A stretch of 42,512 bases of DNA from Candidatus Kaiserbacteria bacterium RIFOXYD1_FULL_42_15 (GTDB lineage Bacteria; Patescibacteriota; Minisyncoccia; Phycocordibacterales; UBA918), in contig MFMT01000023.1 in the NCBI GenBank assembly GCA_001783565.1, positions 1-42,512 of the forward strand. The letters run 5' to 3'. The position numbers were made by a program, and so were the translations under genes. Of this stretch, positions 3,857-42,512 are shown piece by piece. A model generated the notes under the pieces. It searched no databases and was not told where the DNA came from. It saw only the letters and a program-made list of their open reading frames with translations. Position 1 is the stretch's first letter, and each line of letters starts with the position of its first letter.

Positions 3857-6727
3857 ATGCATAAAAAAATCAATCACCAAGAAATTGAAGCAAAGTGGCA
3901 AAAGCAGTGGGCAAATAGCGCGATCTATCACACTACTGAAAATCCTGACAAACCAAAAACCTTCGTGCTCGACATGTTTCCTTATCCATCGGGAGAAGGT
4001 CTTCATGTTGGACATCCCAAAGGATATATTGCCACCGACATCTACTCTCGTTTCAAACGCATGACGGGACATGAAGTACTTCACCCAATGGGATGGGATG
4101 CTTTTGGCTTACCGGCCGAGAACTACGCCATCAAGAATAAAGTACATCCCCGAGTGGCAGTAGAAAAAAATGTTGCGCGCTTCAAGGAACAGCTTGGTGT
4201 TCTTGGTTTTGATTATGATTGGGATAGAGAAATAAATACTACCGACCCTGCCTACTATAAATGGACGCAGTGGATTTTTCTACAACTGTTTAAAAAGGGG
4301 TTGGCTTATGAGTCGTATGAACCTATCAACTGGTGCCCTGGTTGTCAGACAGGATTGGCAAACGAGGATCTCGAGAGTGATGGCACTTGTGAGCGTTGCG
4401 GTAGTGTAGTTGAAAAGAGACCGATGCGTCAGTGGGTATTAAAGATTCGTGAATATGCGGACCGAATGCTCGATGACCTAGACATGCTTGAGTGGCCAGA
4501 ACATATCAAAGAAGCTCAGCGTAATTGGATAGGCAGGTCAAAAGGAGCAGAGATAGATTTCAAACTTTTCTCACCTAGGACATCCGATGTCCTAGGTGAG
4601 AATGAAGAAATTGGCGAAGTTACAGTTTTTACGACTCGACCAGATACTCTCTACGGGGCGACTTATTTAGTGCTGGCTCCCGAACATCCATTTATAGAAA
4701 ATGAGATAGAGAAAATTGAAAATAGAAAAGAAGTGGATGATTACATTGCTAAAGCTAAACAAAAAAATGAACAAGATCGCCTTGATGCTACCAAAGAAAA
4801 GACTGGGGTGAAATTGGAAGGTGTTACAGCAATCAACCCAGGAAGTGGAGAAGAGATACCGGTATATATTGCGGATTATGTGCTCGCCAGTTATGGCACC
4901 GGCGCCATTATGGCTGTCCCAGCACATGATGAACGTGATTTTGAGTTTGCTACTAAATTCGGTGTTGAGATAAAGCAGGTGGTAGCACCATTCATTAAAG
5001 CTGATGGTGAGGACTCACCCAGAGATGGTCTTGAGACTTTAGAAAGACCCTGTATAGACATAATTATTGAGCATCCAAATAATGGTACTTTCTTAATACA
5101 GAAAGAAAAGGATGGGGATAGAAACCTTATACATTTTGTAGGAGGCGGTGTTGATGGAGAGGATGATATGACAGCTGTGACTAGAGAGCTCTTAGAGAAG
5201 ACAGGATTTTCCGAATTTGAATTTATGTCGAATAAACCAGTATTTACTACAAAATCCATTGGTTATCGTCATAGTAAGAACAAGAATCAGCAAGGCGTTA
5301 GTAATTTTTATCACATTAAACTAACTGGTCTGGGGCAGGTACGTTCGGAGATAGAAGATGGTAAACATACAGTTGAGTGGCTGACGAGAGAAGAGATTAC
5401 AAAACAAATAACCTGGGCCTGGCATGCAAGATCTTGGGCTGCCTTGAATGGAGAAATGGTATCCACCAATTTGGGAGTTTTAGTAAATTCTGGAGAATTT
5501 GACGGAATGAATTCAGAGGAAGCTAAGAAAGCTATCGTTGAAAAAGTTGGTGGGCGGATGACTAATACTTATAAAATTCGTGATTGGGTGTTTTCACGTC
5601 AGCGTTATTGGGGAGAGCCAATTCCGATTGTTCATTGTGAGAAATGTGGACCAGTAGCTGTTCCTGAAGATCAATTGCCAATAACTCTACCAGAAGTCGA
5701 ACGCTACGAGCCGGCTGGAGACGGACAGTCGCCACTCTCAACTATTCCCGACTGGGTCAACACCACTTGTCCGCAGTGTGGAGAAGCAGGCAAGCGCGAG
5801 ACCAACACAATGCCACAGTGGGCGGGCTCGTCTTGGTACTACCTACGCTACATGGATCCAAAAAATGACCGAGAGCTAGTATCAAAGGAACGTGAAAAAT
5901 ATTGGGCACCGGTTGATATTTACGTTGGCGGTGACCATGCCGTGCGCCACCTTATTTACGCGCGGTTCTGGCATAAATTCTTGTATGACATTGGTGTTGT
6001 ATCTACCGTAGAACCATTCCAACGACTCGAATTCCTTGGTTTTATTCTAGCTGAAGACGGACGAAAAATGAGTAAGCGGTGGGGAAATGTTATCAATCCT
6101 GACGACATTGTGGCGTTAGTGGGGGCAGACAGTTTGCGTGTCTATGAAATGTTCATGGGTCCGTTTGAAAATACTATCGCCTGGTCCAAAGACGGACTGG
6201 CGGGGGCCTGCCGTTTCTTGGAACGAGTTAATGGATTAAGTGCCCACCTGACTGACAATGAATCAGAATCAGTACAGAGACAACTTCATAAGACTATTAG
6301 GAAGGTGGTCGAAGATATTGAAAGCTTCAAATTCAACACGGCCGTCAGTGCCATGATGATATTTATTAATGAAGCGGAAAAGAATGGGTTGTCACAAAAG
6401 ACTTTTGAGCAATTCTTGCAAATTCTGGCACCATTTGCACCACACTTGACTGAGGAACTTTGGCAAGAACTCGGTCACAGCAACTCCATTCATCTGGAGT
6501 CGTTCCCTGTCGCAGACGAGGAATTAGCCAAGGACACAACAGTTGAGATTGGAGTTCAGATTAATGGCAAACTACGTGGCAGTATTGAGGTAGCTCCTGA
6601 TGCCCCGGAGAGTACTGTAACCGACATGGCCAAGGGCAATAGTGTAATCGCCAAGTACCTTGATCAGGCGGAGATTAAGAAAGTGGTCTACGTACCCGGA
6701 CGCATTCTTAATTTCATTATTAATTAG
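3857..6727 (+). CDS. leuS: leucine--tRNA ligase with an extra Nudix-like inserted domain
   Basis: 956 aa. It has the HIGH motif (HVGH), the CP1 editing motifs TTRPDT and GTGAIMAVPAHDERD, KMSKR, and WYYLRY. An extra ~140 aa lies between EFATKFGVEIKQVV and GVLVNSGEFDG. Confidence 0.95.
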   Translation: MHKKINHQEIEAKWQKQWANSAIYHTTENPDKPKTFVLDMFPYPSGEGLHVGHPKGYIATDIYSRFKRMTGHEVLHPMGWDAFGLPAENYAIKNKVHPRVAVEKNVARFKEQLGVLGFDYDWDREINTTDPAYYKWTQWIFLQLFKKGLAYESYEPINWCPGCQTGLANEDLESDGTCERCGSVVEKRPMRQWVLKIREYADRMLDDLDMLEWPEHIKEAQRNWIGRSKGAEIDFKLFSPRTSDVLGENEEIGEVTVFTTRPDTLYGATYLVLAPEHPFIENEIEKIENRKEVDDYIAKAKQKNEQDRLDATKEKTGVKLEGVTAINPGSGEEIPVYIADYVLASYGTGAIMAVPAHDERDFEFATKFGVEIKQVVAPFIKADGEDSPRDGLETLERPCIDIIIEHPNNGTFLIQKEKDGDRNLIHFVGGGVDGEDDMTAVTRELLEKTGFSEFEFMSNKPVFTTKSIGYRHSKNKNQQGVSNFYHIKLTGLGQVRSEIEDGKHTVEWLTREEITKQITWAWHARSWAALNGEMVSTNLGVLVNSGEFDGMNSEEAKKAIVEKVGGRMTNTYKIRDWVFSRQRYWGEPIPIVHCEKCGPVAVPEDQLPITLPEVERYEPAGDGQSPLSTIPDWVNTTCPQCGEAGKRETNTMPQWAGSSWYYLRYMDPKNDRELVSKEREKYWAPVDIYVGGDHAVRHLIYARFWHKFLYDIGVVSTVEPFQRLEFLGFILAEDGRKMSKRWGNVINPDDIVALVGADSLRVYEMFMGPFENTIAWSKDGLAGACRFLERVNGLSAHLTDNESESVQRQLHKTIRKVVEDIESFKFNTAVSAMMIFINEAEKNGLSQKTFEQFLQILAPFAPHLTEELWQELGHSNSIHLESFPVADEELAKDTTVEIGVQINGKLRGSIEVAPDAPESTVTDMAKGNSVIAKYLDQAEIKKVVYVPGRILNFIIN

Positions 6728-6760
6728 TTTGTTTGAATAAAGTACCTGTGCTAGTTAAAC

Positions 6761-6980
6761 GTGGATTGCCACGTCACTCCGCTATCGCTCCATTCCTCGC
6801 AAAGACGGCCAGCGTAGCTGACCGTCGACGACTAAAACTAAAGTTTTAGTCGTCTTTACGAGTGAAACGCAGCAATCCACGTCGTCGTCCCGTCTGTCTT
6901 TGCCTGCCTGCCCTGCATGCCATGCCTGCGCATGCAGGGCAGGCATGGCATGCAGGCGAGTGGCAACGAAGCAATTTACG
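6761..6980. repeat. cluster B of the GTGGATTGC-N-CTCGCAAAGACG family
   Basis: Units are 6761-6807 (+, long form) and 6851-6880 (-). A degenerate minus unit at 6891-6979 has a nested GC-rich palindrome. A perfect 12-bp hairpin lies at 6827-6854 between the first two units. Confidence 0.85.
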
Positions 6981-7093
6981 TTTGATTAACATTGGTGTCT
7001 ATAACTATGTTGACGTATATCAATTCGCATGATATAAATACACTCACGCATTGAGCTACAAAACTCACCCATAGATTAAATACCCTTAATATT

Positions 7094-13261: not shown

Positions 13262-13386
13262 CAAACGTGGATTGCTTCACTCCGTTCGCCTGTCTGCCAT
13301 GCCTGCGCATGCAGGGCAGACAGGCAAAGACGGTTGTCTGTTCTGCCTGTTCGTCTTTGCGAGGAGCTTGTGACGAAGCAATCCAG
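13262..13386. repeat. cluster C of the GTGGATTGC-N-C(A/T)..GCAAAGACG family
   Basis: Units are 13267-13332 (+) and 13352-13386 (-). The + unit carries the GC-rich core CTGCCATGCCTGCGCATGCAGGGCAG, also seen in cluster B. Confidence 0.85.
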
Positions 13387-14251: not shown

Positions 14252-14307
14252 GAAATTTACGGGTCTCACCCTTAAATTTGAAACAAAGATATAGAACTAG
14301 TTATTTT

Positions 14308-30970: not shown

Positions 30971-30997
30971 AAACTTAGGGGTTAAACCCCTAAGTTT
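30971..30997. repeat. REP-like hairpin, left flank of the RAYT gene
   Basis: AAACTTAGGGG-TTAAA-CCCCTAAGTTT, an 11-bp stem. It overlaps the RAYT stop codon by 1 nt and lies 4 nt after the dnaJ stop. Confidence 0.85.
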
Positions 30998-31626
30998 TAC
31001 TCTAGGGTATCGGATGATTTTGATTTTAGTCTCCTTAAATAAATATCATTAGCCAGAAATACGGCGTCTTTAAACGAGTAATCAACCTGTTCAACACTGT
31101 ATAATAGCTTGCTTCTAGATATATTTTGATAGTGCAGTGAACTGGAGTGACATATTTCTCTCTCCATTTTTATATTATGCACAAAATGATTTTCATTTAC
31201 ATATGCGAGTAGATAGTTGTATTGTTCATCTGAGTTAACATGAACTCGCTTAAATGTTCCCTGGAACAATGCTCCTGATCTATCATTATCTAAATTGTAA
31301 TAACTAGTATACCCACCACTGACTCTTTTCATGAACTCACTAATACCACCATCGATATTTTGTTTTAAAATTAAATGAATGTGATTAGGTAATAGAGAGT
31401 ATGCCTTTATATTCACCAAACGTTCAGCATTTGTGAATATCTTTTTGTGGGCTAATGCAAAATCAAAATTGATTACTGGTTCTATTGAATTAAACAAATC
31501 AAGTGATTGATAAAAACGTAAATAGTCACGTTTTGATGCAAAAACTTCCCGTTTATCAACACCACGATTAAACACGTGGTATATTTCACCAGTCAGCAAT
31601 GGAACAATTTTTCTTGACATAACCAT
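30997..31626 (-). CDS. REP-associated tyrosine transposase (RAYT, IS200/IS605-like HUH Y1 transposase)
   Basis: 209 aa. It has the N-terminal YHVFNRGVDKREVF, the HUH motif LLPNHIHLIL, and a C-terminal catalytic-Tyr region LAYVNENHFVH. Confidence 0.85.
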   Translation of the reverse strand: MVMSRKIVPLLTGEIYHVFNRGVDKREVFASKRDYLRFYQSLDLFNSIEPVINFDFALAHKKIFTNAERLVNIKAYSLLPNHIHLILKQNIDGGISEFMKRVSGGYTSYYNLDNDRSGALFQGTFKRVHVNSDEQYNYLLAYVNENHFVHNIKMEREICHSSSLHYQNISRSKLLYSVEQVDYSFKDAVFLANDIYLRRLKSKSSDTLE

Positions 31627-31634
31627 ATTATATC

Positions 31635-31661
31635 AAACTTAGGGGTTTAACCCCTAAGTTT
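31635..31661. repeat. REP-like hairpin, right flank of the RAYT gene
   Basis: AAACTTAGGGG-TTTAA-CCCCTAAGTTT is the exact reverse complement of the left hairpin. It lies 8 nt upstream of the RAYT ATG. Confidence 0.85.
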
Positions 31662-31721
31662 TTATCCCAAGGTGATAAAGCGCTAGCTGTTGATTAATCT
31701 TATAATGTAGATAAGTAAACT

Positions 31722-35779: not shown

Positions 35780-37441
35780 ATGGAACAATTACTCTGTCCA
35801 TGGGACGCACCAAACTGGCTATTTTTTTCAGAAAATGTGCCAAATATGCTTTTTTATTCACACTTTACCGCACTTCTAGCTATTTTCATCATAGGGTCAT
35901 TTCTGTTTTTTAAAGATAGGAAAAACCTTACCGTTCGTATTTTAACAGGTCTTTTTATTTTGTTTTTTGTATGGACAATAATTGACGTTATTATTTGGGC
36001 GACAAACAGGTCGGACTTGGTTTTGTTTTTGTGGGCAATGATTGTACTGATTGAACCAATTATTTATATACTCGCTTTTTACACTTTGTTTAGTTTTTCC
36101 TACAACAAAACACCCGCTTTCATCATCAACCTTTTTGTAACTCTTTTACTTCTTCCTCTTATATTGTTTATACCAACTAATTTGAATCTTAGTGGTATCA
36201 ATTTGTATGACTGTAATGCTATAGAAGGTCCATTAGCCAGTGTTTACACATATTTCCTTGAAATATTGTTTATTTTTGGGATAATATTTGTTGCTACAAA
36301 AAAGATTGTTTCATTAGAAACTCGAAAAGAAAGAGTAAAGATTTTGTTTTTTGCCCTTGGTCTACTAGCGTTCTTGGCTGCTTTTGCTTCTGGAAATATT
36401 ATTGGTAGTGTAACTGGTGATTGGATACTAGCACAGTATGGACTGCTTGGTATGCCAATCTTTGTGGGATTTCTAACCTACCTTATTGTTGAATACAAAA
36501 TCTATAATTTAAATATCCTTGGCGCCCAAGCACTCATTGTAACCCTCTGGTTTTTGATTGGATCACTATTATTTGTTGCGCAATCAATTCAAACCAAAAT
36601 TGTGTCGGGTTTTACACTTTTAGTTGCTGTTGTCTTGGGAATAATTTTGGTTCGTAGTATTAAAAATACTGTCCACCAACGTGAAGAGATTGAAAAACTG
36701 GCGATTAAACTGGAGAAAACTAATGTTCGCCTTAAGATACTTGATAAGCAAAAATCTGAATTCGTTTCCATTGCTAGCCACCAATTACGCAGTCCACTGA
36801 CTTCTATTCGTGGTTATATTTCTATGATGCAAGAGGGAAGTTTTGGGGCTGTGACTGCCAAAATGATTGAACCGCTCCAACGAATCAACGAATCGGCCTC
36901 CATGATGGCTACTTCCATTGAGGATTTTCTCAGTGTATCTCGTATTGAGTCAGGTAATATGAAATATGAATATTCTGACTTTAATCTGCGTGACCAAGCC
37001 GAACATATCGTTGATGACCTGCGACCAGAAGCACTTAAAAAAGGACTATTGCTATTATTCCGCACCGATCTAAACTGCCAAGGAATAGTTAAAGCCGATG
37101 TCGGTAAAATACAACAAATTCTTCATAACCTTATTAACAACTCTCTCAAGTATACACCCAAAGGAACTATTACAGTCTACGTTCACGACGATAAGAAACG
37201 AAAATTATTGTACGTTGAGATAATTGACACTGGCATCGGTATGAGTCAGGTGACAATAGACTCTTTGTTTGAGAAATTCACTCGGGCACAAAATGCCAAC
37301 TCAGTTAATATAAAAGGCACTGGATTAGGACTCTTTATTGCCCGAGAAATGGCTCGGGCTATGAAGGGTGATGTCACTGCTCACTCTGAGGGGGAAGGTA
37401 AGGGTTCTCACTTTATTTTTACTATTCCATTTCAGCAATAA
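35780..37441 (+). CDS. sensor histidine kinase with a polytopic membrane N-terminus
   Basis: 553 aa. About 8 TM helices are followed by the HisKA H-box FVSIASHQLRSPLTSIRGY and HATPase_c N/G boxes (LHNLINNSLKYT, DTGIGM, GTGLGLFIA). No response regulator is present in the window. Confidence 0.9.
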   Translation: MEQLLCPWDAPNWLFFSENVPNMLFYSHFTALLAIFIIGSFLFFKDRKNLTVRILTGLFILFFVWTIIDVIIWATNRSDLVLFLWAMIVLIEPIIYILAFYTLFSFSYNKTPAFIINLFVTLLLLPLILFIPTNLNLSGINLYDCNAIEGPLASVYTYFLEILFIFGIIFVATKKIVSLETRKERVKILFFALGLLAFLAAFASGNIIGSVTGDWILAQYGLLGMPIFVGFLTYLIVEYKIYNLNILGAQALIVTLWFLIGSLLFVAQSIQTKIVSGFTLLVAVVLGIILVRSIKNTVHQREEIEKLAIKLEKTNVRLKILDKQKSEFVSIASHQLRSPLTSIRGYISMMQEGSFGAVTAKMIEPLQRINESASMMATSIEDFLSVSRIESGNMKYEYSDFNLRDQAEHIVDDLRPEALKKGLLLLFRTDLNCQGIVKADVGKIQQILHNLINNSLKYTPKGTITVYVHDDKKRKLLYVEIIDTGIGMSQVTIDSLFEKFTRAQNANSVNIKGTGLGLFIAREMARAMKGDVTAHSEGEGKGSHFIFTIPFQQ

Positions 37442-38431: not shown

Positions 38432-38493
38432 AAAATCTAGGAATAGATTCAAGTGCTGTGGCCCGCCCCGTTAGAAACTATGTTTCAAACAGG

Positions 38494-38739
38494 GCTCGCA
38501 AAAACGACGTTAACGAAAACGTGGATTGCCACGTTGCGACTCGCAAAGACGACGGTGGGTATGAGATGTTTATTGCGTCGTCTTCGCGAGGAGGGAGCTC
38601 GCAAGCGAGTGACGTGGCGATCCATGGTGGTTTGACGGTGTGGATTGCTTCGTTGCGACTCGCAAAGACGGCGTTGACGAACGACGTGGCAATCCATAAT
38701 GTACGAAAACGTGGATTGCCTAATAACCTCACGAAGACG
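38494..38739. repeat. cluster D of the GTGGATTGC-N-CTCGCAAAGACG family
   Basis: Units are 38521-38551 (+), 38579-38625 (-), 38640-38670 (+) and 38711-38739 (+). Half units lie at 38494-38505 and 38689-38697. Confidence 0.85.
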
Positions 38740-38780
38740 TATTTGATGCGGTCATTAAAAAAATGAGGTACAATATAAAA

Positions 38781-40487: not shown

Positions 40488-40506
40488 CGGTTGAATAGTT
40501 GATTAT

Positions 40507-40690
40507 GTCGTTGCGAGTCGCAACGTGGCAATCCACAGCGAAGGCAGACGTGGATCGCTTCGTTGCGACTCGCGAAGACGAAGTTGACCGGACGGATATG
40601 GATTGCCACCTGCCGCGCTTCGCTCGCAGCTAAAGGCGCTCGCAAAGACGGACGTGACAGACGTGGATTGCTTCGTGTGCTCGCAAAGAC
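40507..40690. repeat. cluster E of the GTGGATTGC-N-CTCGCAAAGACG family
   Basis: Units are 40507-40536 (-), 40550-40580 (+), 40598-40650 (+, with an internal duplication of the CGCTCGCA arm) and 40663-40690 (+). Confidence 0.85.
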
Positions 40691-40777
40691 TCATGTGGTG
40701 GATGTAGCGATATGCGATCAACCAGCAATACTCATTTCGAAAACTAAATTAAATACCAAACATGATAGAATTACTGT

Positions 40778-41521
40778 ATGAGTTTGACTGCCAACACGTT
40801 TGATTTCTCTATTAAAACCAACGTCTTTGAAGGACCGCTGGAGCTTTTGATTGAGTTGGTGGAAAAGCGCAAGCTACTGATTAATGATATTTCGCTGGCA
40901 GAAGTTACAGACGAATACCTTAACCGCGTGAGTGAGATGCAAGAAATGTCATTACCGAATACCGCCCAGTTTATACAACTCGCTGCGACACTTCTTTTGA
41001 TAAAATCAAAGTCGTTATTACCAGTCCTTGAGCTCACCTCTGAAGAGGAGACGGTTATTGGCGACCTGGAGGAACGACTGAGGATATATCAAGTCTATCG
41101 TACCGGAGGACAGTATTTAGCTAGTGTTTTCGGTCAAGCACCGCTGTATGGACCAAGGTTTGTACCGCCTAAAAATCCCATGTTTGTTACCGATGAATGG
41201 TGTACTATCACAGCTCTACATGAAGCGATGTTAGGTGTGTTGCAGAATCTTCCTAAAAAAGAATTCAAGCCAAAGGTACAAGTAAAGGCAACCATCTCGC
41301 TTGAAGACATGATGATCAGCTTGCAAAAACGAATAGAAAAACACATCAGAACTAAATTCTCCGAACTACGTGCCGAAGCTACAGAACACAAAACTGTGAT
41401 TGTGAGTTTTCTGGCTATTTTGGAGTTATTCAAACAAGGGAATGTATTGGTAACACAACTAGGGCGATACGGTGATATTGAAATTGTGCTAGAGCAGGGA
41501 AGTACGCCGAGGTATTATTGA
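40778..41521 (+). CDS. scpA: segregation and condensation protein A
   Basis: 247 aa. FEGPLELLIELVEKRKLLINDISLAEVTDEYL is the typical ScpA kleisin N-terminus. Confidence 0.9.
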   Translation: MSLTANTFDFSIKTNVFEGPLELLIELVEKRKLLINDISLAEVTDEYLNRVSEMQEMSLPNTAQFIQLAATLLLIKSKSLLPVLELTSEEETVIGDLEERLRIYQVYRTGGQYLASVFGQAPLYGPRFVPPKNPMFVTDEWCTITALHEAMLGVLQNLPKKEFKPKVQVKATISLEDMMISLQKRIEKHIRTKFSELRAEATEHKTVIVSFLAILELFKQGNVLVTQLGRYGDIEIVLEQGSTPRYY

Positions 41522-41612
41522 ATATAAGAAAGAGGATAGGGAAAGGGGAGGGGGTTTAATGGTTGAATAGTTAAATAGTTGCATGGTTGCAAAGTTTAAT
41601 AGTAACGTGGTT

Positions 41613-41878
41613 GTGGACTGCTTCGCGAGCTTGCGGTGACGACTTACTTTCGTCTTTACGAGGAATGGAGCGATAGCGGAATGACGTGGCAATCCATGGT
41701 AATGACGAACGGTGTGGATTGCTTCCTTACAGGAACTGTTCAGGTTGTCACTATTTTTGCAAAATAGCAGGCAACCTCTTGCGAAGCTCCAAGTGTTCGC
41801 TTCTCACGTGCGACTCGCAAAGACGACGAGGAGGGGCGATGGTGAGACGGATTGTTGTGACAGGGTTGGGCAATCCAT
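41613..41878. repeat. cluster F of the GTGGATTGC-N-CTCGCAAAGACG family
   Basis: There is a degenerate unit at 41613-41643. Unit 41651-41697 (-) matches 44 of 47 nt of the reverse complement of unit 6761-6807. Unit 41714-41825 (+) has its arms separated by an ~80-nt insert. Half units lie at 41847-41857 and 41870-41878. Confidence 0.85.
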
Positions 41879-41892
41879 TTTAATAAATATAT

Positions 41893-41938
41893 AAAAAGAA
41901 AAGGCTGTTGCAATGTCGATGAATCGATTGCAACAGCC
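41893..41938 (-). terminator. strong rho-independent terminator on the minus strand
   Basis: A 12-bp stem GGCTGTTGCAAT/ATTGCAACAGCC (41903-41938) is followed on the minus strand by TTTTCTTTTT (41902-41893). Confidence 0.75.
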
Positions 41939-42355
41939 CTGACGGTCAGTTTAAGATTTTTCTCTCGAAGGGAAAACTGCCAACCCCTTGCCACTTTACC
42001 ACCGCCATGCGGTGTCATGTGGCGAATTCATACATCGGAACATTTTCATGTCCCTCTCCCTTTCTCTTTCTTTTCTGATCGTTTTGGCGTTGGGAGAAAC
42101 CCGGTTGGGTTCCCCCCTCAAAAGACCTGAGGTGTCCGTTGCGATTAGGTTGCTAAAGAGCAACTACATCGCATAGTCACCTCGGCCGGCGCCGACGCAT
42201 CAGGTCGATGCGGTCGGCAGAATCACGGCACCCAGGTCGACAAAAAATTCAACACTCATTTGCATCGCCATATACTGCGGCGAGAAGTTGGTTTTCATTT
42301 CAATCCTCCACTTGCTTGAGCTACACCACACGATTGTGATGTTTCTTGCTCAAGT
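41895..42355 (-). ncRNA. candidate ~460-nt structured transcript (unknown RNA, or a carrier of small ORFs) in the scpA-scpB gap
   Basis: It is bounded by the promoter at 42362-42390 and the terminator at 41893-41938. It is a GC-rich island with many local hairpins, a 26-nt purine-only tract, and no ORF of 60 aa or more. Its identity is unknown. Confidence 0.4.
42200..42298 (-). CDS. hypothetical 32-aa peptide with a canonical Shine-Dalgarno
   Basis: GGAGG (complement of 42305-42309) is followed by a 6-nt spacer and ATG. I translated it by hand as MKTNFSPQYMAMQMSVEFFVDLGAVILPTAST. Its GC-rich codons differ from the rest of the window. Coding status is unproven. Confidence 0.3.
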   Translation of the reverse strand: MKTNFSPQYMAMQMSVEFFVDLGAVILPTAST

Positions 42356-42361
42356 CTTAAT

Positions 42362-42390
42362 ATATTATCATACTATACCATAAAAGTCAA
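42362..42390 (-). promoter_or_regulatory. near-consensus extended -10 promoter on the minus strand
   Basis: Read on the minus strand: TTGACT (42390-42385), a 17-nt spacer ending in TGA, then TAATAT (42367-42362). Confidence 0.6.
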
Positions 42391-42476
42391 GCAATTTTGT
42401 TAAAAATTGGCAGTTGTGCACAAAAAGAGCGGAAAAACTTTGTTTTTCAGCCCTAAAACTGTGTTAAAATACCCAC

Positions 42477-42512
42477 ATGCCTTTAGATATCCTCATTGAA
42501 GGACTGCTTTTT
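42477..42512 (+). CDS. scpB: segregation and condensation protein B, 5' end only (runs off the window)
   Basis: The hand translation MPLDILIEGLLF resembles the ScpB N-terminus (..IEALLF). TAAAAT lies 6 nt upstream, and this is the expected partner of scpA. Confidence 0.55.
   Translation, partial: MPLDILIEGLLF

What the first reader, a model, noticed from the sequence alone, without database searches (positions are those of the whole stretch)
41893..42390. scpA and scpB split by a foreign-looking, promoter- and terminator-bounded minus-strand unit: GC-rich structured RNA with two SD-led micro-ORFs
scpA (ends 41521) and scpB (starts 42477) are normally adjacent or overlapping, but here 955 bp separate them. 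Beyond repeat cluster F, the gap holds a self-contained minus-strand unit. Its promoter is near consensus: TTGACT, 17 nt, TGA, then TAATAT (42390-42362). The body is about 460 nt. The terminator is strong: a 12-bp stem at 41903-41938 followed by TTTTCTTTTT. The body is a GC-rich island in an AT-rich genome and is packed with hairpins. Examples are CCGA-CGCATC-AGGTC-GATGCG-G-TCGG at 42192-42217, GTTGCT-AAAG-AGCAAC at 42149-42164, and GGGAGAAACCC-GGTT-GGGTTCCCCCC at 42092-42117. The 5' leader has a CTTGAGC/GCTCAAG stem. There is also a 26-nt purine-only tract (complement of 42051-42076) and no ORF of 60 aa or more. Two micro-ORFs each sit behind a canonical Shine-Dalgarno. The first is GGAGG-6 nt-ATG for MKTNFSPQYMAMQMSVEFFVDLGAVILPTAST (42298-42200). 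The second is GGAGAGGGAC-ATG for MKMFRCMNSPHDTAWRW (42049-41996). Essentially no other gene in this window has an SD, and the codons are GC-rich. By inference the unit is either a novel structured ncRNA (in AT-rich genomes ncRNAs stand out as GC islands), a horizontally acquired small-peptide or toxin-like locus, or a dual-function RNA. I could not match it to tmRNA, RNase P, SRP, 6S or common riboswitch signatures by eye.
Basis: partly seen in the sequence, partly recalled or inferred. Interest (0 to 1): 0.75.

Follow-up and report, generated by a model that had tools for sequence, protein, structure and literature searches.

The report
Hypervariable micro-gene cassette upstream of scpB
Between two chromosome-segregation genes of an uncultivated groundwater bacterium (Candidatus Kaiserbacteria) lies a separately promoted mini-gene that encodes a peptide of about 32 residues followed by a strongly folded RNA tail; its parts are swapped between strains and species, so it is a new, unexplained polymorphic locus, not junk and not a known RNA.

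Summary
The described unit is real. On the minus strand it has an extended -10 sigma-70 promoter (42390-42362), a 5' hairpin, GGAGG, a 32-codon ORF (42298-42200), about 260 nt of GC-rich structure and a hairpin-plus-U-run terminator (41938-41893). It matches nothing in Rfam, ARAGORN, Pfam, NCBIfam or PADLOC, nor any phage, plasmid or viral sequence searched.

Relatives settle three points.

1. Micro-ORF1 is very likely translated. Twelve alleles keep the frame to one conserved UGA. The N-terminal N-F-S-P(-Q) motif varies only at third codon positions, including a TCG-to-AGC serine switch. A Shine-Dalgarno word is kept in a genome that otherwise lacks them.
2. Micro-ORF2 is not a gene. Its "SD+ATG" is a GNRA-tetraloop hairpin, and it is deleted or truncated in relatives.
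3. The unit is not a one-off foreign insertion. It sits upstream of scpB across a Kaiserbacteria subclade. It is a mosaic cassette (promoter/leader, ORF, 3' domain). Deeply divergent alleles coexist within a species and are shared between species.

Structure in the 3' domain is supported by folding energy, not by significant covariation. Function is unknown. My best reading is a small-peptide mRNA with interchangeable structured tails. A dual-function RNA remains possible.

The parts
42362..42390 (-). Sigma-70-type promoter: -35 TTGACT (42390-42385), 17-nt spacer ending in TGA (extended -10), -10 TAATAT (42367-42362). The predicted transcription start is near 42355.
   Evidence: The same architecture, TTGAC[ATG]-16/17-TAnn[AG]T (ATTATT in L044), is present in all 15 related units examined, 14 of them with TG before the -10.
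42315..42354 (-). 5'-terminal hairpin of the transcript: outer stem CUUGAGC/GCUCAAG and inner stem CAUCACA-AUCG-UGUGGUG. It ends a few nucleotides before the SD.
   Evidence: Folds (leader alone -17.3 kcal/mol, z = -3.9). Inner-stem position 5 is A-U, C-G or U-A in different alleles, which needs at least two compensatory double changes. U-G pairs fit only the minus strand.
42305..42309 (-). Shine-Dalgarno GGAGG, 6 nt upstream of the ORF1 ATG.
   Evidence: An SD-like purine word is kept upstream of the ATG in 11 of 12 alleles. Only 5 of 38 other genes in the window have one.
42200..42298 (-). Micro-ORF1: 32 codons plus UGA, MKTNFSPQYMAMQMSVEFFVDLGAVILPTAST. It is one allele of a polymorphic small-peptide family with a constant N-F-S-P(-Q) motif (codons at 42275-42289) and a variable remainder.
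   Evidence: The frame is kept to a conserved UGA in 11 complete alleles of 25-37 codons. Motif substitutions occur only at third positions, plus a TCG-to-AGC serine switch. The other two frames usually contain stops. The exact peptide is also present as a called gene in the public protein collection (P0121).
42192..42217 (-). GC-rich hairpin CCGAC-CGCAUC-GACCU-GAUGCG-UCGG that holds the ORF1 stop codon within the conserved CCUGAU(C/G) context.
   Evidence: L011 changes both sides of this stem to U-G and G-U wobble pairs, so pairing is kept only on the minus strand. CCUGAU(C/G) is conserved in most alleles; L026/L037 have CCUGACC and L028 CUGAUC.
41939..42191 (-). 'Long' structured 3' domain. 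It contains hairpins at 42149-42164 and 42092-42117, a purine tract at 42051-42076, a GNRA hairpin GGGACAU-GAAA-AUGUUCC at 42037-42054, and the helix GCCAC/GUGGC enclosing CACCGC-AUG-GCGGUG at 41990-42023.
   Evidence: z-score. The domain is 82-94% identical in species whose scpB is only 71-73% identical. RNAalifold predicts 73 pairs with 96% of cells paired; 9 pairs vary on one side through G-U and 1 pair is compensatory. This is not significant against shuffles. The domain is absent or replaced in alleles L013, L028 and L029 and partly deleted in L019.
41996..42049 (-). Micro-ORF2 (MKMFRCMNSPHDTAWRW). Rejected as a gene; it is part of the structured 3' domain.
   Evidence: L019 lacks the block with its ATG. 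L026 has a premature stop, giving 14 aa. The 'SD+ATG' lies in a tetraloop hairpin.
41893..41938 (-). Intrinsic terminator: 12-bp outer stem GGCUGUUGCAAU/AUUGCAACAGCC with an inner CGAU-UCA-UCG(A) stem, followed by UUUUCUUUUU.
   Evidence: Of the 17 predicted stem pairs, 15 are invariant in five sequences. The tail GCCUUUUCUUUUU is also kept in units that have a different terminator stem.
42414..42423 (.). Palindrome TTGTGCACAA between the scpB promoter and the unit's promoter. It marks the scpB-side boundary of the exchanged cassette.
   Evidence: TTGTG(C/T)ACAACT is conserved in L005, L026, L028, L029, L034 and L037. In L037 the sequence switches from window-like to species-C-like at this point.

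Best explanation
The unit is a real, independently transcribed small-protein gene. Its mRNA is unusually well armoured, and it belongs to a positionally conserved but highly polymorphic cassette upstream of scpB in a subclade of Candidatus Kaiserbacteria.

Proposed mechanism:
1. A strong extended -10 promoter fires away from scpB.
2. The transcript starts with a stable 5' hairpin, which I infer protects it from 5'-end-dependent decay.
3. A Shine-Dalgarno sequence recruits ribosomes. This is rare in a genome where most genes look leaderless.
4. Ribosomes translate a peptide of 29-41 residues. The N-terminal M-x(2-5)-N-F-S-P-Q is the constant part, and the remaining roughly 22-30 residues are the variable part.
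5. Translation always ends at a UGA embedded in a GC-rich hairpin.
6. A GC-rich structured 3' region and an intrinsic terminator finish the RNA.

Shown by the data:
- The promoter, hairpin, SD, ORF and terminator architecture is conserved.
- The ORF start is constrained at codon level.
- The three modules (promoter/leader, ORF allele, 3' domain) recombine between strains and species.
- Deeply divergent alleles coexist within one species.

Inferred:
- The peptide is the main product, with its variable part acting as a specificity region under balancing or diversifying selection.
- The 3' domain is an interchangeable accessory that stabilises the RNA or adds a riboregulatory function.
For: Architecture:
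- Promoter, hairpin-plus-U-run terminator and strong folding are all present.
- The same promoter type occurs in 15 of 15 related units.
- The 5' hairpin has two compensatory changes.

Coding:
- Eleven complete alleles (plus one cut by a contig end) keep the frame from the start to one conserved UGA. Their lengths are 78-114 nt, all multiples of 3. The other two frames mostly contain stops.
- In the N-F-S-P codons, all 4 variable sites among the close alleles are third positions (chance 1/495). L041 encodes Ser as AGC instead of TCG and Pro as CCT.
- An SD is kept in 11 of 12 alleles, against 5 of 38 other genes in the window.
- Two alleles are already called as 32- and 37-aa genes in public data.

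Polymorphism:
- Species C has scpB at least 98.9% identical in nucleotides across L026, L028 and L029, yet carries three unrelated ORF alleles, two promoter types and two 3' domains.
- The window strain and L005 differ at 3 of 744 nt in scpA. Their ORFs are 58% identical and their 3' domains 94%.
- The window's allele recurs at 87-89% in species C, whose scpB is 71% identical.
- L037 combines the L028 promoter (100%) with the L026 ORF (98%).
- Allele a is identical in at least 10 independent samples, so these are not assembly chimeras.
- Window against L011: 13 of 99 ORF positions differ, 0 of 201 flanking positions differ, and 19 of 549 scpB positions differ.
Against: - There is no expression or peptide data.
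- Two units have lost the start codon while keeping the transcript (L028 also lost the SD and part of the 5' hairpin; L034). One unit, L044, has no such ORF. The peptide is therefore dispensable in some lineages, or those copies are decaying.
- The variable part has no conserved physicochemical character: net charge runs from -4 to +3 and GRAVY from -0.85 to +1.1. This fits a specificity region but equally fits a sequence that does not matter.
- Within allele class c, dN/dS is about 1 (window against L011) and about 0.3 (window against L029). Positive selection is not shown.
- No partner gene (exporter, receptor or modifying enzyme) lies within the 42-kb window or 9 kb downstream.
- The conserved UUCUCGCCG also takes part in predicted local hairpins, so part of its conservation could act at RNA level.
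Confidence: 0.6

Rival explanations
1. Dual-function RNA. The transcript both encodes the peptide and acts through its conserved structured 3' domain as a riboregulator or protein-binding RNA, as RNAIII/hld or SR1/SR1P do.
For: - The long 3' domain is 82-94% identical between species whose scpB is 71-73% identical.
- It folds far better than shuffled sequence.
- All one-sided changes in predicted stems keep pairing through G-U on the minus strand.
- Its high GC content is maintained in an AT-rich genome.
- Units with no usable start codon still keep the promoter and terminator.
Against: - Covariation is not significant: 1 compensatory pair, and 194 of 500 shuffles do as well.
- The domain is missing or replaced in alleles L013, L028 and L029, partly deleted in L019, and undetectable by nhmmer in more distant units. 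It is therefore not an essential part of the unit.
- Its high cross-species identity could simply reflect recent transfer.
- No target or binding motif was identified.
Confidence: 0.3
2. Purely non-coding structured sRNA. ORF1 is incidental, and its conserved stretch is an RNA motif.
For: - Folding z-scores are strong.
- Start-less or ORF-less versions exist: L028, L034 and L044.
- The conserved UUCUCGCCG can pair with the SD or with a downstream GCGGCGAAA.
- The stop codon lies in a motif conserved at nucleotide level, CCUGAUC.
Against: - Substitutions in the motif occur only at third positions, and the TCG-to-AGC serine switch changes the nucleotides while keeping the amino acid.
- The frame stays open across indels in 11 complete alleles, while the other frames carry stops.
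- The SD is conserved at the right distance.
Confidence: 0.12
3. Translated sensor or leader ORF. What matters is the act of translating about 30 codons up to a UGA inside a hairpin, for instance to remodel the downstream RNA or to report on SD-dependent or RF2-dependent translation capacity. The peptide sequence itself does not matter. The interior therefore drifts freely and is shuffled by recombination.
For: - ORF length is confined to 29-41 codons.
- The start signals and the UGA-in-hairpin context are the conserved parts.
- The interior has no conserved chemistry.
- dN/dS is about 1 within one allele class.
- The stop codon is UGA in all 11 complete alleles.
Against: - Amino-acid-level conservation of N-F-S-P(-Q) is not explained unless the nascent peptide acts on the ribosome.
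- Nothing lies downstream of the terminator to be regulated except repeats and the convergent end of scpA.
- The short-type units have little RNA after the stop codon.
Confidence: 0.15
4. Type I toxin-antitoxin-like selfish module: a small toxic peptide on a highly structured, stable mRNA, held in check by an antisense RNA.
For: - The ORF is small and sits behind a 5' hairpin on a very structured mRNA.
- The locus is polymorphic, transferred horizontally and shows apparent pseudogenisation (L028, L034) and an IS insertion (L039).
- Two alleles (c1, g) have a hydrophobic stretch.
Against: - Most alleles have no transmembrane-grade hydrophobic segment. The best 17-residue Kyte-Doolittle window ranges from -0.38 to 1.14 for 9 of 11 alleles.
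- No antisense promoter is conserved among alleles.
- The unit is single-copy in the 42.5-kb window.
- It is fixed at one chromosomal position across species.
Confidence: 0.08
5. Decayed fragment of a longer protein gene, or inert foreign DNA.
For: - GC content is higher than the surroundings.
- Gene callers sometimes place 67-105-aa ORFs on the opposite strand of related units.
Against: - Those ORFs are not conserved in sequence or frame between relatives and are arginine-rich antisense artefacts.
- They give no Pfam hit.
- The promoter, hairpin and terminator are conserved across species.
Confidence: 0.03

Closest known systems
Dual-function (coding) sRNAs: S. aureus RNAIII/hld, B. subtilis SR1/SR1P, E. 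coli SgrS/SgrT, psm-mec RNA
   Same: These are promoter-to-terminator transcripts of a few hundred nucleotides, with a small SD-led ORF towards the 5' end and a long, hairpin-rich remainder. (The comparison draws on my own knowledge of these systems. The window's architecture comes.)
   Different: - There is no sequence or structure match to any Rfam family.
- No base-pairing target is known.
- The ORF is polymorphic, with deeply divergent alleles.
- The 3' domain is exchangeable or absent.
Pherotype or specificity-group peptide loci of Gram-positive bacteria (agrD, comC, comX, shp)
   Same: - The peptide gene is short, with a constant part and a hypervariable part.
- Several deeply divergent alleles coexist within a species and are shared across species boundaries.
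- Apparent null alleles exist.
   Different: - No processing, export or receptor gene lies next to it or within about 50 kb of sequence seen.
- There is no signal or double-glycine leader.
- The neighbours are scpA and scpB.
- Signalling is pure inference.
RiPP precursor peptides (conserved leader, hypervariable core)
   Same: An N-terminal constant motif is followed by a variable C-terminal segment.
   Different: - The constant part is only about 8 residues.
- No modifying enzyme, RRE protein or transporter is in the neighbourhood.
- Cys, Ser and Thr content is not consistent between alleles.
Type I toxin-antitoxin loci (hok/sok, aapA/isoA, ldr/rdl, fst)
   Same: The peptide is about 30 residues and lies on a strongly folded mRNA with a structured 5' end. 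The intergenic locus is polymorphic, with decaying copies.
   Different: - The peptides are mostly not hydrophobic.
- There is no conserved antisense promoter.
- The unit is single-copy in the 42.5-kb window and positionally fixed.
tmRNA (ssrA)
   Same: It is a structured RNA of similar size (about 350-460 nt) with a short reading frame whose stop codon sits in a hairpin.
   Different: - ARAGORN finds no tRNA-like domain in the window or in 12 related loci.
- The ORF has an SD and an ATG.
- The peptide ends are not a conserved degradation tag.
- There is no Rfam hit.

Membership tests
Any Rfam 15 RNA family (including tmRNA, RNase P, SRP, 6S, riboswitches, large ncRNAs) | Covariance-model score at or above the family's gathering threshold | tested here: not met
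   No hits in the window or in 16 related loci. In E-value mode on 41400-42512 the hits all had E of 1 or more and scored far below the gathering thresholds.
tmRNA | tRNA-like domain formed by the 5' and 3' ends, plus a tag reading frame | tested here: not met
   ARAGORN finds no tRNA or tmRNA gene in the window or in 12 loci carrying units.
Dual-function sRNA | Independent transcript with its own promoter and terminator | tested here: met
   Shown at sequence level only. The extended -10 promoter is conserved in 15 of 15 units and the hairpin-plus-U-run terminator is present. No transcript data.
Dual-function sRNA | Small ORF that is translated | tested here: met
   Comparative evidence only: frame conservation, third-position-only substitutions, the TCG/AGC serine switch and a conserved SD. 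No Ribo-seq or peptide data.
Dual-function sRNA | Regulatory activity of the RNA itself (base pairing with targets or protein binding) | not testable with these tools
   No target was identified. Covariation in the 3' domain is not significant.
Type I toxin-antitoxin | Small hydrophobic, membrane-inserting toxin | tested here: not met
   Only 2 of 11 alleles reach a 17-residue Kyte-Doolittle mean of 1.5 or more. Allele a has GRAVY -0.85.
Type I toxin-antitoxin | Antisense or overlapping antitoxin RNA with its own promoter | tested here: inconclusive
   The consensus scan finds antisense promoter-like sites in 5 of 15 units, at positions that are not shared between unrelated alleles. A trans-encoded antitoxin cannot be excluded.
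Peptide pheromone / pherotype locus | Genetic linkage to processing, export or receptor genes that co-vary with the peptide | tested here: not met
   The neighbours are AspRS/AsnRS-type synthetase, ScpA, ScpB, a D-Ala-D-Ala carboxypeptidase, MraY, FtsW and MurG. The rest of the window is housekeeping. A histidine kinase lies about 4.5 kb away (35780-37441), but it was not examined for co-variation.
Peptide pheromone / pherotype locus | Multiple divergent alleles within a species, shared across species | tested here: met
RiPP precursor | Maturation enzyme(s) encoded nearby that recognise the leader | tested here: not met
   No radical-SAM, YcaO, LanB/C/M, ATP-grasp or peptidase-C39 transporter domains occur among the window's proteins or 9 kb downstream.
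Diversity-generating retroelement target | Reverse transcriptase and template repeat nearby, with adenine-specific substitutions | tested here: not met
   There is no RT domain in the window. The substitutions between alleles c1 and c2 are of nine different types, and alleles also differ by indels.
Known protein families (Pfam, NCBIfam, PADLOC) | Profile-HMM match to the peptide | tested here: not met
   No match with E below 0.29 for 7 alleles. A profile search of 1.84 billion representatives returned only the two alleles themselves, plus two repeat proteins whose hits are sums of weak repeat matches.

The most novel reading that the evidence does not exclude
The cassette may be a population-level recognition or antagonism system of CPR bacteria. 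In this reading the peptide is abundant and leaderless, its constant N-F-S-P-Q handle is used for export or docking, and its variable tail defines 'types'. Negative frequency-dependent selection would maintain those types, and related Kaiserbacteria species sharing an aquifer would exchange them. The peptide would be carried on a bifunctional RNA whose alternative 3' domains add a regulatory layer. That would be the first pherotype-like or kin-discrimination-like locus described in the Candidate Phyla Radiation.
Probability: 0.2. Interest if true: 0.85.

Novelty: new variant of a known kind. Interest (0 to 1): 0.62.

Why it matters
CPR bacteria such as Kaiserbacteria are uncultivated, have tiny genomes, and have almost no described regulatory RNAs or small proteins.

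This locus gives four things:
- A concrete, testable candidate for a translated micro-protein family that gene callers almost always miss.
- An example of SD-led translation in a genome that otherwise appears to use leaderless mRNAs.
- A recombination hotspot where strains that are 99-100% identical in the flanking genes carry unrelated alleles, and where alleles cross species boundaries. This is the signature expected of loci involved in interactions between cells, phages or hosts.
- An explanation for why metagenome assemblies repeatedly break just upstream of scpB in these organisms.

If the peptide turns out to be a specificity determinant, it would open the question of self/non-self or signalling biology in CPR bacteria to direct experiment.

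Tried and rejected
- **Known RNA families.** Rfam with gathering thresholds on the whole window and 16 loci, and E-value mode on the region, gave only noise. ARAGORN found no tmRNA or tRNA.
- **Mobile-element origin.** blastn of the unit against 50,697 phage and 72,556 plasmid records found no match. Exact 19-20-mers of the 3' domain had no match in IMG/VR viral contigs.
- **Micro-ORF2.** Rejected because it is deleted or truncated in relatives and lies in a hairpin.
- **Opposite-strand ORFs of 62-105 aa called by gene finders.** Rejected: not conserved and no Pfam hit.
- **DGR-type mutagenesis.** Rejected: no RT, and substitutions are not adenine-specific.
- **Cis-antisense antitoxin promoter.** Not conserved.
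- **SD sequestration by long-range pairing.** The predicted MFE structures differ between alleles, so no conclusion is possible.
- **By-eye resemblance of the L044 and L007 units to the long 3' domain** (ACGGAC...UUYCGAU...CGAGAGAAAAAUCU). nhmmer did not support it, so I treat it only as a lead.
- **Peptide homology.** Nothing in Pfam, NCBIfam or PADLOC. The 5.8-billion-protein search returned only two alleles. The 1.84-billion-representative profile search added only two repeat proteins whose hits are sums of weak repeat matches.
- **Collection scans.** The ScpA scan of genome contigs returned 4 loci and the ScpB scan of metagenome contigs returned 4. Most alleles therefore came from exact-protein look-ups.
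- **Literature.** Searches for NFSPQ, and for CPR together with small RNA, hypervariable or Shine-Dalgarno terms, found nothing relevant.
Full report
**1. The observation**

- scpA ends at 41521 and scpB starts at 42477, leaving 955 nt between them.
- On the minus strand there is a -35 TTGACT (42390-42385), a 17-nt spacer ending in TGA, and a -10 TAATAT (42367-42362). This was the best promoter-like site in the region.
- A 12-bp outer stem at 41903-41938 is followed by UUUUCUUUUU. The simple terminator scanner did not list it. I think this is because the hairpin has an inner stem rather than a short loop, but I did not check that against the tool.
- The RNA from 42362 to 41893 folds with -185.3 kcal/mol, z = -7.55 against dinucleotide shuffles. 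The opposite strand gives z = -6.58.
- The unit is 49% GC against 40% for the window, and it occurs once in the window.
- Only 5 of 38 genes in the window have any SD-like word upstream. Fifteen of 39, including scpA and scpB, have a -10-like box ending 4-12 nt before the start codon, against 5% of random positions. The organism therefore seems to use mostly leaderless mRNAs, and a 57-nt leader with GGAGG is exceptional.
- One small correction: ORFs of 62 aa (plus strand) and 92 aa (minus strand, running through the terminator) do overlap the unit. They are not conserved.

**2. Not a known element**

- Rfam 15 gives no hit at gathering thresholds in the window or in 16 related loci, and only noise in E-value mode.
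- ARAGORN finds no tmRNA or tRNA.
- There is no blastn match in phage or plasmid collections and no exact 19-20-mer match in viral contigs.
- The peptides match nothing in Pfam, NCBIfam or PADLOC.

**3. Organism and relatives**

- The closest ScpA proteins in species-representative genomes belong to Candidatus Kaiserbacteria and Paceibacteria MAGs, at 59-78% identity.
- Exact-protein look-ups for ScpA, for ScpB homologues at 70-95% identity, and for the allele-a peptide (P0122) gave about 46 contigs; two collection scans added 8 more. Most are from groundwater metagenomes.
- By scpB nucleotide identity these fall into the window's species complex A (95-100%), species B (82%), species C (71%), species D (81% at amino-acid level) and more distant ones.
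- In every locus that carries both genes and the unit, scpA and scpB are 406-955 nt apart. The space next to scpB holds a minus-strand unit with the same promoter type, TTGAC[ATG]-16/17-TAnn[AG]T (ATTATT in L044); 14 of the 15 units also have TG before the -10.
- The unit is therefore an old resident of this position in the clade. It is not an insertion peculiar to this genome.
- Many assemblies break inside it.

**4. Micro-ORF1 is very likely translated**

Twelve alleles were recovered:
- MKTNFSPQYMAMQMSVEFFVDLGAVILPTAST (window)
- MKTNFSPHHVEKNMSVEFLGDLGAAILPTAST
- MKTNNFSPQYVAMQMSVEFFGDLSAPILPTAST
- MTGNFSPQVVTHLQKNFCHVDDVLRACRRRCALT
- MLTNFSPQGVTAHYVFCALSKPPVPAEST
- MKTINFSPPPQNAAKETDRFCAGLADLENVVAST
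- MKMNNFSPQITAKKIRVEINININTLGLVGASTP
- MTDPMNFSPQNAAKENESLFY(D/G)DHSRGLATVGDGTTT
- MMLFSNNFSPQMRIRAVGGNIVNNDVLAAGGAIT
- and others.

The evidence for translation is as follows.
- All complete alleles keep the frame from the start to the same UGA, which lies in the conserved context CCUGAU(C/G), despite many indels. Lengths are 78-114 nt, always multiples of three. The other two frames usually carry stops.
- In the N-F-S-P codons, the four variable sites among the close alleles are all third positions and all synonymous. The chance of that placement is 1/495.
- L041 encodes the same N-F-S-P-Q with AGC for Ser and CCT for Pro. That is hard to explain at RNA level.
- An SD-like word is kept 5-10 nt upstream in 11 of 12 alleles.
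- Two alleles already exist as called 32- and 37-aa genes in the public protein collection.

The caveats are these.
- L028 has lost the SD, the ATG and part of the 5' hairpin. L034 has lost the ATG. L044 has no such ORF.
- The conserved UUCUCGCCG also takes part in predicted local hairpins.

**5. Micro-ORF2 is not a gene**

- The block containing its ATG is absent from species D (L019).
- Species C (L026) has a stop after 14 codons.
- Its 'GGAGAGGGAC-ATG' is the 5' arm and loop of a GGGACAU-GAAA-AUGUUCC tetraloop hairpin.

**6. RNA structure**

- The 5'-terminal hairpin (42354-42315) is kept in species A-D. One inner-stem pair is A-U, C-G or U-A in different alleles, and several changes are to U-G.
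- The stop-codon hairpin changes to wobble pairs on both sides in L011. These wobbles are compatible only with the minus strand.
- For the long 3' domain, RNAalifold predicts 73 pairs with 96% of cells paired. Nine pairs vary on one side through G-U and one pair is compensatory (GCCAC/GUGGC to GCCGU/GCGGC). With only five, very similar sequences this is no better than shuffled controls: 194 of 500 shuffles do as well.
- The 3' structure therefore rests on folding energy and on the maintained GC content. It does not rest on covariation.

**7. A mosaic, polymorphic cassette**

The unit consists of three modules: promoter plus leader, ORF allele, and 3' domain. They recombine.
- Species C contigs L026, L028 and L029 are at least 98.9% identical in scpB. 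They carry three unrelated ORFs (47-62% identity), two promoter/leader types, and a long against a short 3' domain.
- Species B shows the same pattern in L013, L014 and L015.
- In the window's own species, L005 differs at 3 of 744 nt in scpA. Its ORF is 58% identical to the window's while the 3' domain is 94% identical.
- Alleles cross species. The window's ORF recurs at 87-89% in species C, whose scpB is 71% identical.
- L037 (scpB 95% to the window) combines the promoter of L028 (100%) with the ORF (98%) and 3' domain (91%) of L026. Its sequence switches from window-like to species-C-like at the palindrome TTGTG(C/T)ACAACT, which is 42414-42423 in the window.
- These combinations recur in independent samples and assemblers. 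Allele a is identical in at least 10 samples.
- Between the window and L011, 13 of 99 ORF positions differ, 0 of 201 flanking non-coding positions differ, and 19 of 549 scpB positions differ. The Fisher p-values against scpB are 3e-4 for the ORF and 3e-3 for the flank.
- Within allele class c, dN/dS is about 1 (window against L011) and about 0.3 (window against L029). Positive selection is not demonstrated.

**8. What it most likely is and does**

Shown:
- A conserved promoter, 5' hairpin, SD, small ORF, structured tail and terminator.
- Codon-level constraint on the ORF start.
- Modular recombination and coexistence of deep allele classes.

Inferred:
- The transcript is a stable, efficiently translated mRNA for a peptide of 29-41 residues. 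Its N-terminal N-F-S-P-Q is the constant, functional 'handle' and its variable remainder is a specificity region.
- The 3' domains are interchangeable accessories that stabilise the RNA or add a riboregulatory function.

The variable parts share no chemistry: net charge runs from -4 to +3, and most lack a membrane-grade hydrophobic stretch. No partner gene lies within the 42.5-kb window or 9 kb downstream. That sequence encodes tRNA synthetases, ribosomal proteins, RpoA, DnaK/DnaJ/GrpE and cell-wall and division genes.

I give 0.6 to 'translated small-protein gene in a polymorphic cassette'. The rivals are:
- a true dual-function RNA (0.3, compatible with the main reading);
- a translated sensor ORF whose peptide sequence is irrelevant (0.15);
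- a purely non-coding sRNA (0.12);
- a type I toxin-antitoxin-like module (0.08);
- a decayed gene (0.03).

**9. Comparison with known systems**

- In architecture it works most like the coding sRNAs (RNAIII/hld, SR1/SR1P).
- In population genetics it behaves most like the pherotype peptide loci (agrD, comC, comX).
- It fails the membership tests that could be run for tmRNA, all Rfam families, type I toxins (hydrophobic peptide), RiPP and pheromone loci (linked enzymes or receptors) and DGR targets.
- I therefore file it as a new variant of a known kind, namely small-ORF-bearing structured transcripts. Its unusual property is that it is a recombining, trans-specifically polymorphic cassette in a CPR bacterium.

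**10. Limits**

- There are no expression or proteomic data.
- Only about 12 alleles were recovered, from a narrow clade.
- The genome and metagenome collection scans returned few loci.
- Resemblances between the long 3' domain and the units of more distant relatives (L044, L007) were seen by eye only and were not supported by nhmmer.

Noticed in passing
window ~2130-2310, 6750-6990, 13270-13380, 38490-38750, 40500-40700, 41590-41880: Clusters of REP-like intergenic repeats are built from CTCGCAAAGAC / GTCTTTGCGAG and GGATTGC / GCAATCC words in both orientations. For example, 41651-41696 is 96% complementary to 6762-6807. One cluster fills the space between the end of scpA and the unit's terminator. 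Related repeats follow the terminator in species A', B and C.
   Followed up: partly
whole window; e.g. scpA 40778, scpB 42477: Fifteen of 39 genes have a -10-like hexamer ending 4-12 nt before the start codon, against 5% of random positions. Only 5 of 38 have an SD-like word. The organism appears to rely largely on leaderless or very short-leader mRNAs. scpA and scpB each look like separate leaderless transcription units.
   Followed up: partly
window 42414-42455: A perfect palindrome TTGTGCACAA (42414-42423) is followed by the hairpin GAGCGGAAAAAC-TTTG-TTTTTCAGCCC (42428-42455), which overlaps the scpB -35 region. Both lie between the divergent promoters and are conserved in relatives. The palindrome coincides with the cassette's recombination boundary and could be an operator.
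   Followed up: partly
window 3857-6727: The leucyl-tRNA synthetase (956 aa) gives a NUDIX-domain hit at residues 398-525, next to its editing domain. This looks like an unusual insertion.
   Followed up: no
window 30971-30998 and 31635-31662: Near-identical perfect palindromes AAACTTAGGGGTT(A/T)AACCCCTAAGTTT flank the only long minus-strand gene (30997-31626, 209 aa, no Pfam hit). Similar copies occur at 2459-2486 and 14253-14280.
   Followed up: no
L039:182-994: In one relative (ScpB 73%) an IS element (rve integrase, minus strand) occupies the position upstream of scpB where the unit normally lies.
   Followed up: no
window 42200-42202 and all related units: All 11 complete ORF1 alleles stop with UGA, never UAA or UAG, mostly within the conserved context CCUGAU(C/G). 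The stop sits in or next to a GC-rich hairpin whose sequence differs between alleles.
   Followed up: partly
L008:4742-5105 (GTDB Kaiserbacteria MAG JAYTKW010000024): The 364 nt after scpA hold the 3' part of a GC-rich minus-strand unit. It contains an ORF end ...ICIT* at ACCUGAUC and its own terminator, so the family extends to this deposited genome. The contig ends before the ORF start.
   Followed up: partly
L029:~430-450 (leader of allele c3): The 5' hairpin loop of this allele carries an extra perfect palindrome, CATGGTTAATTAACCATG-like (ATGGGTTAATTAACCATG), that is absent from the window's otherwise similar leader.
   Followed up: no
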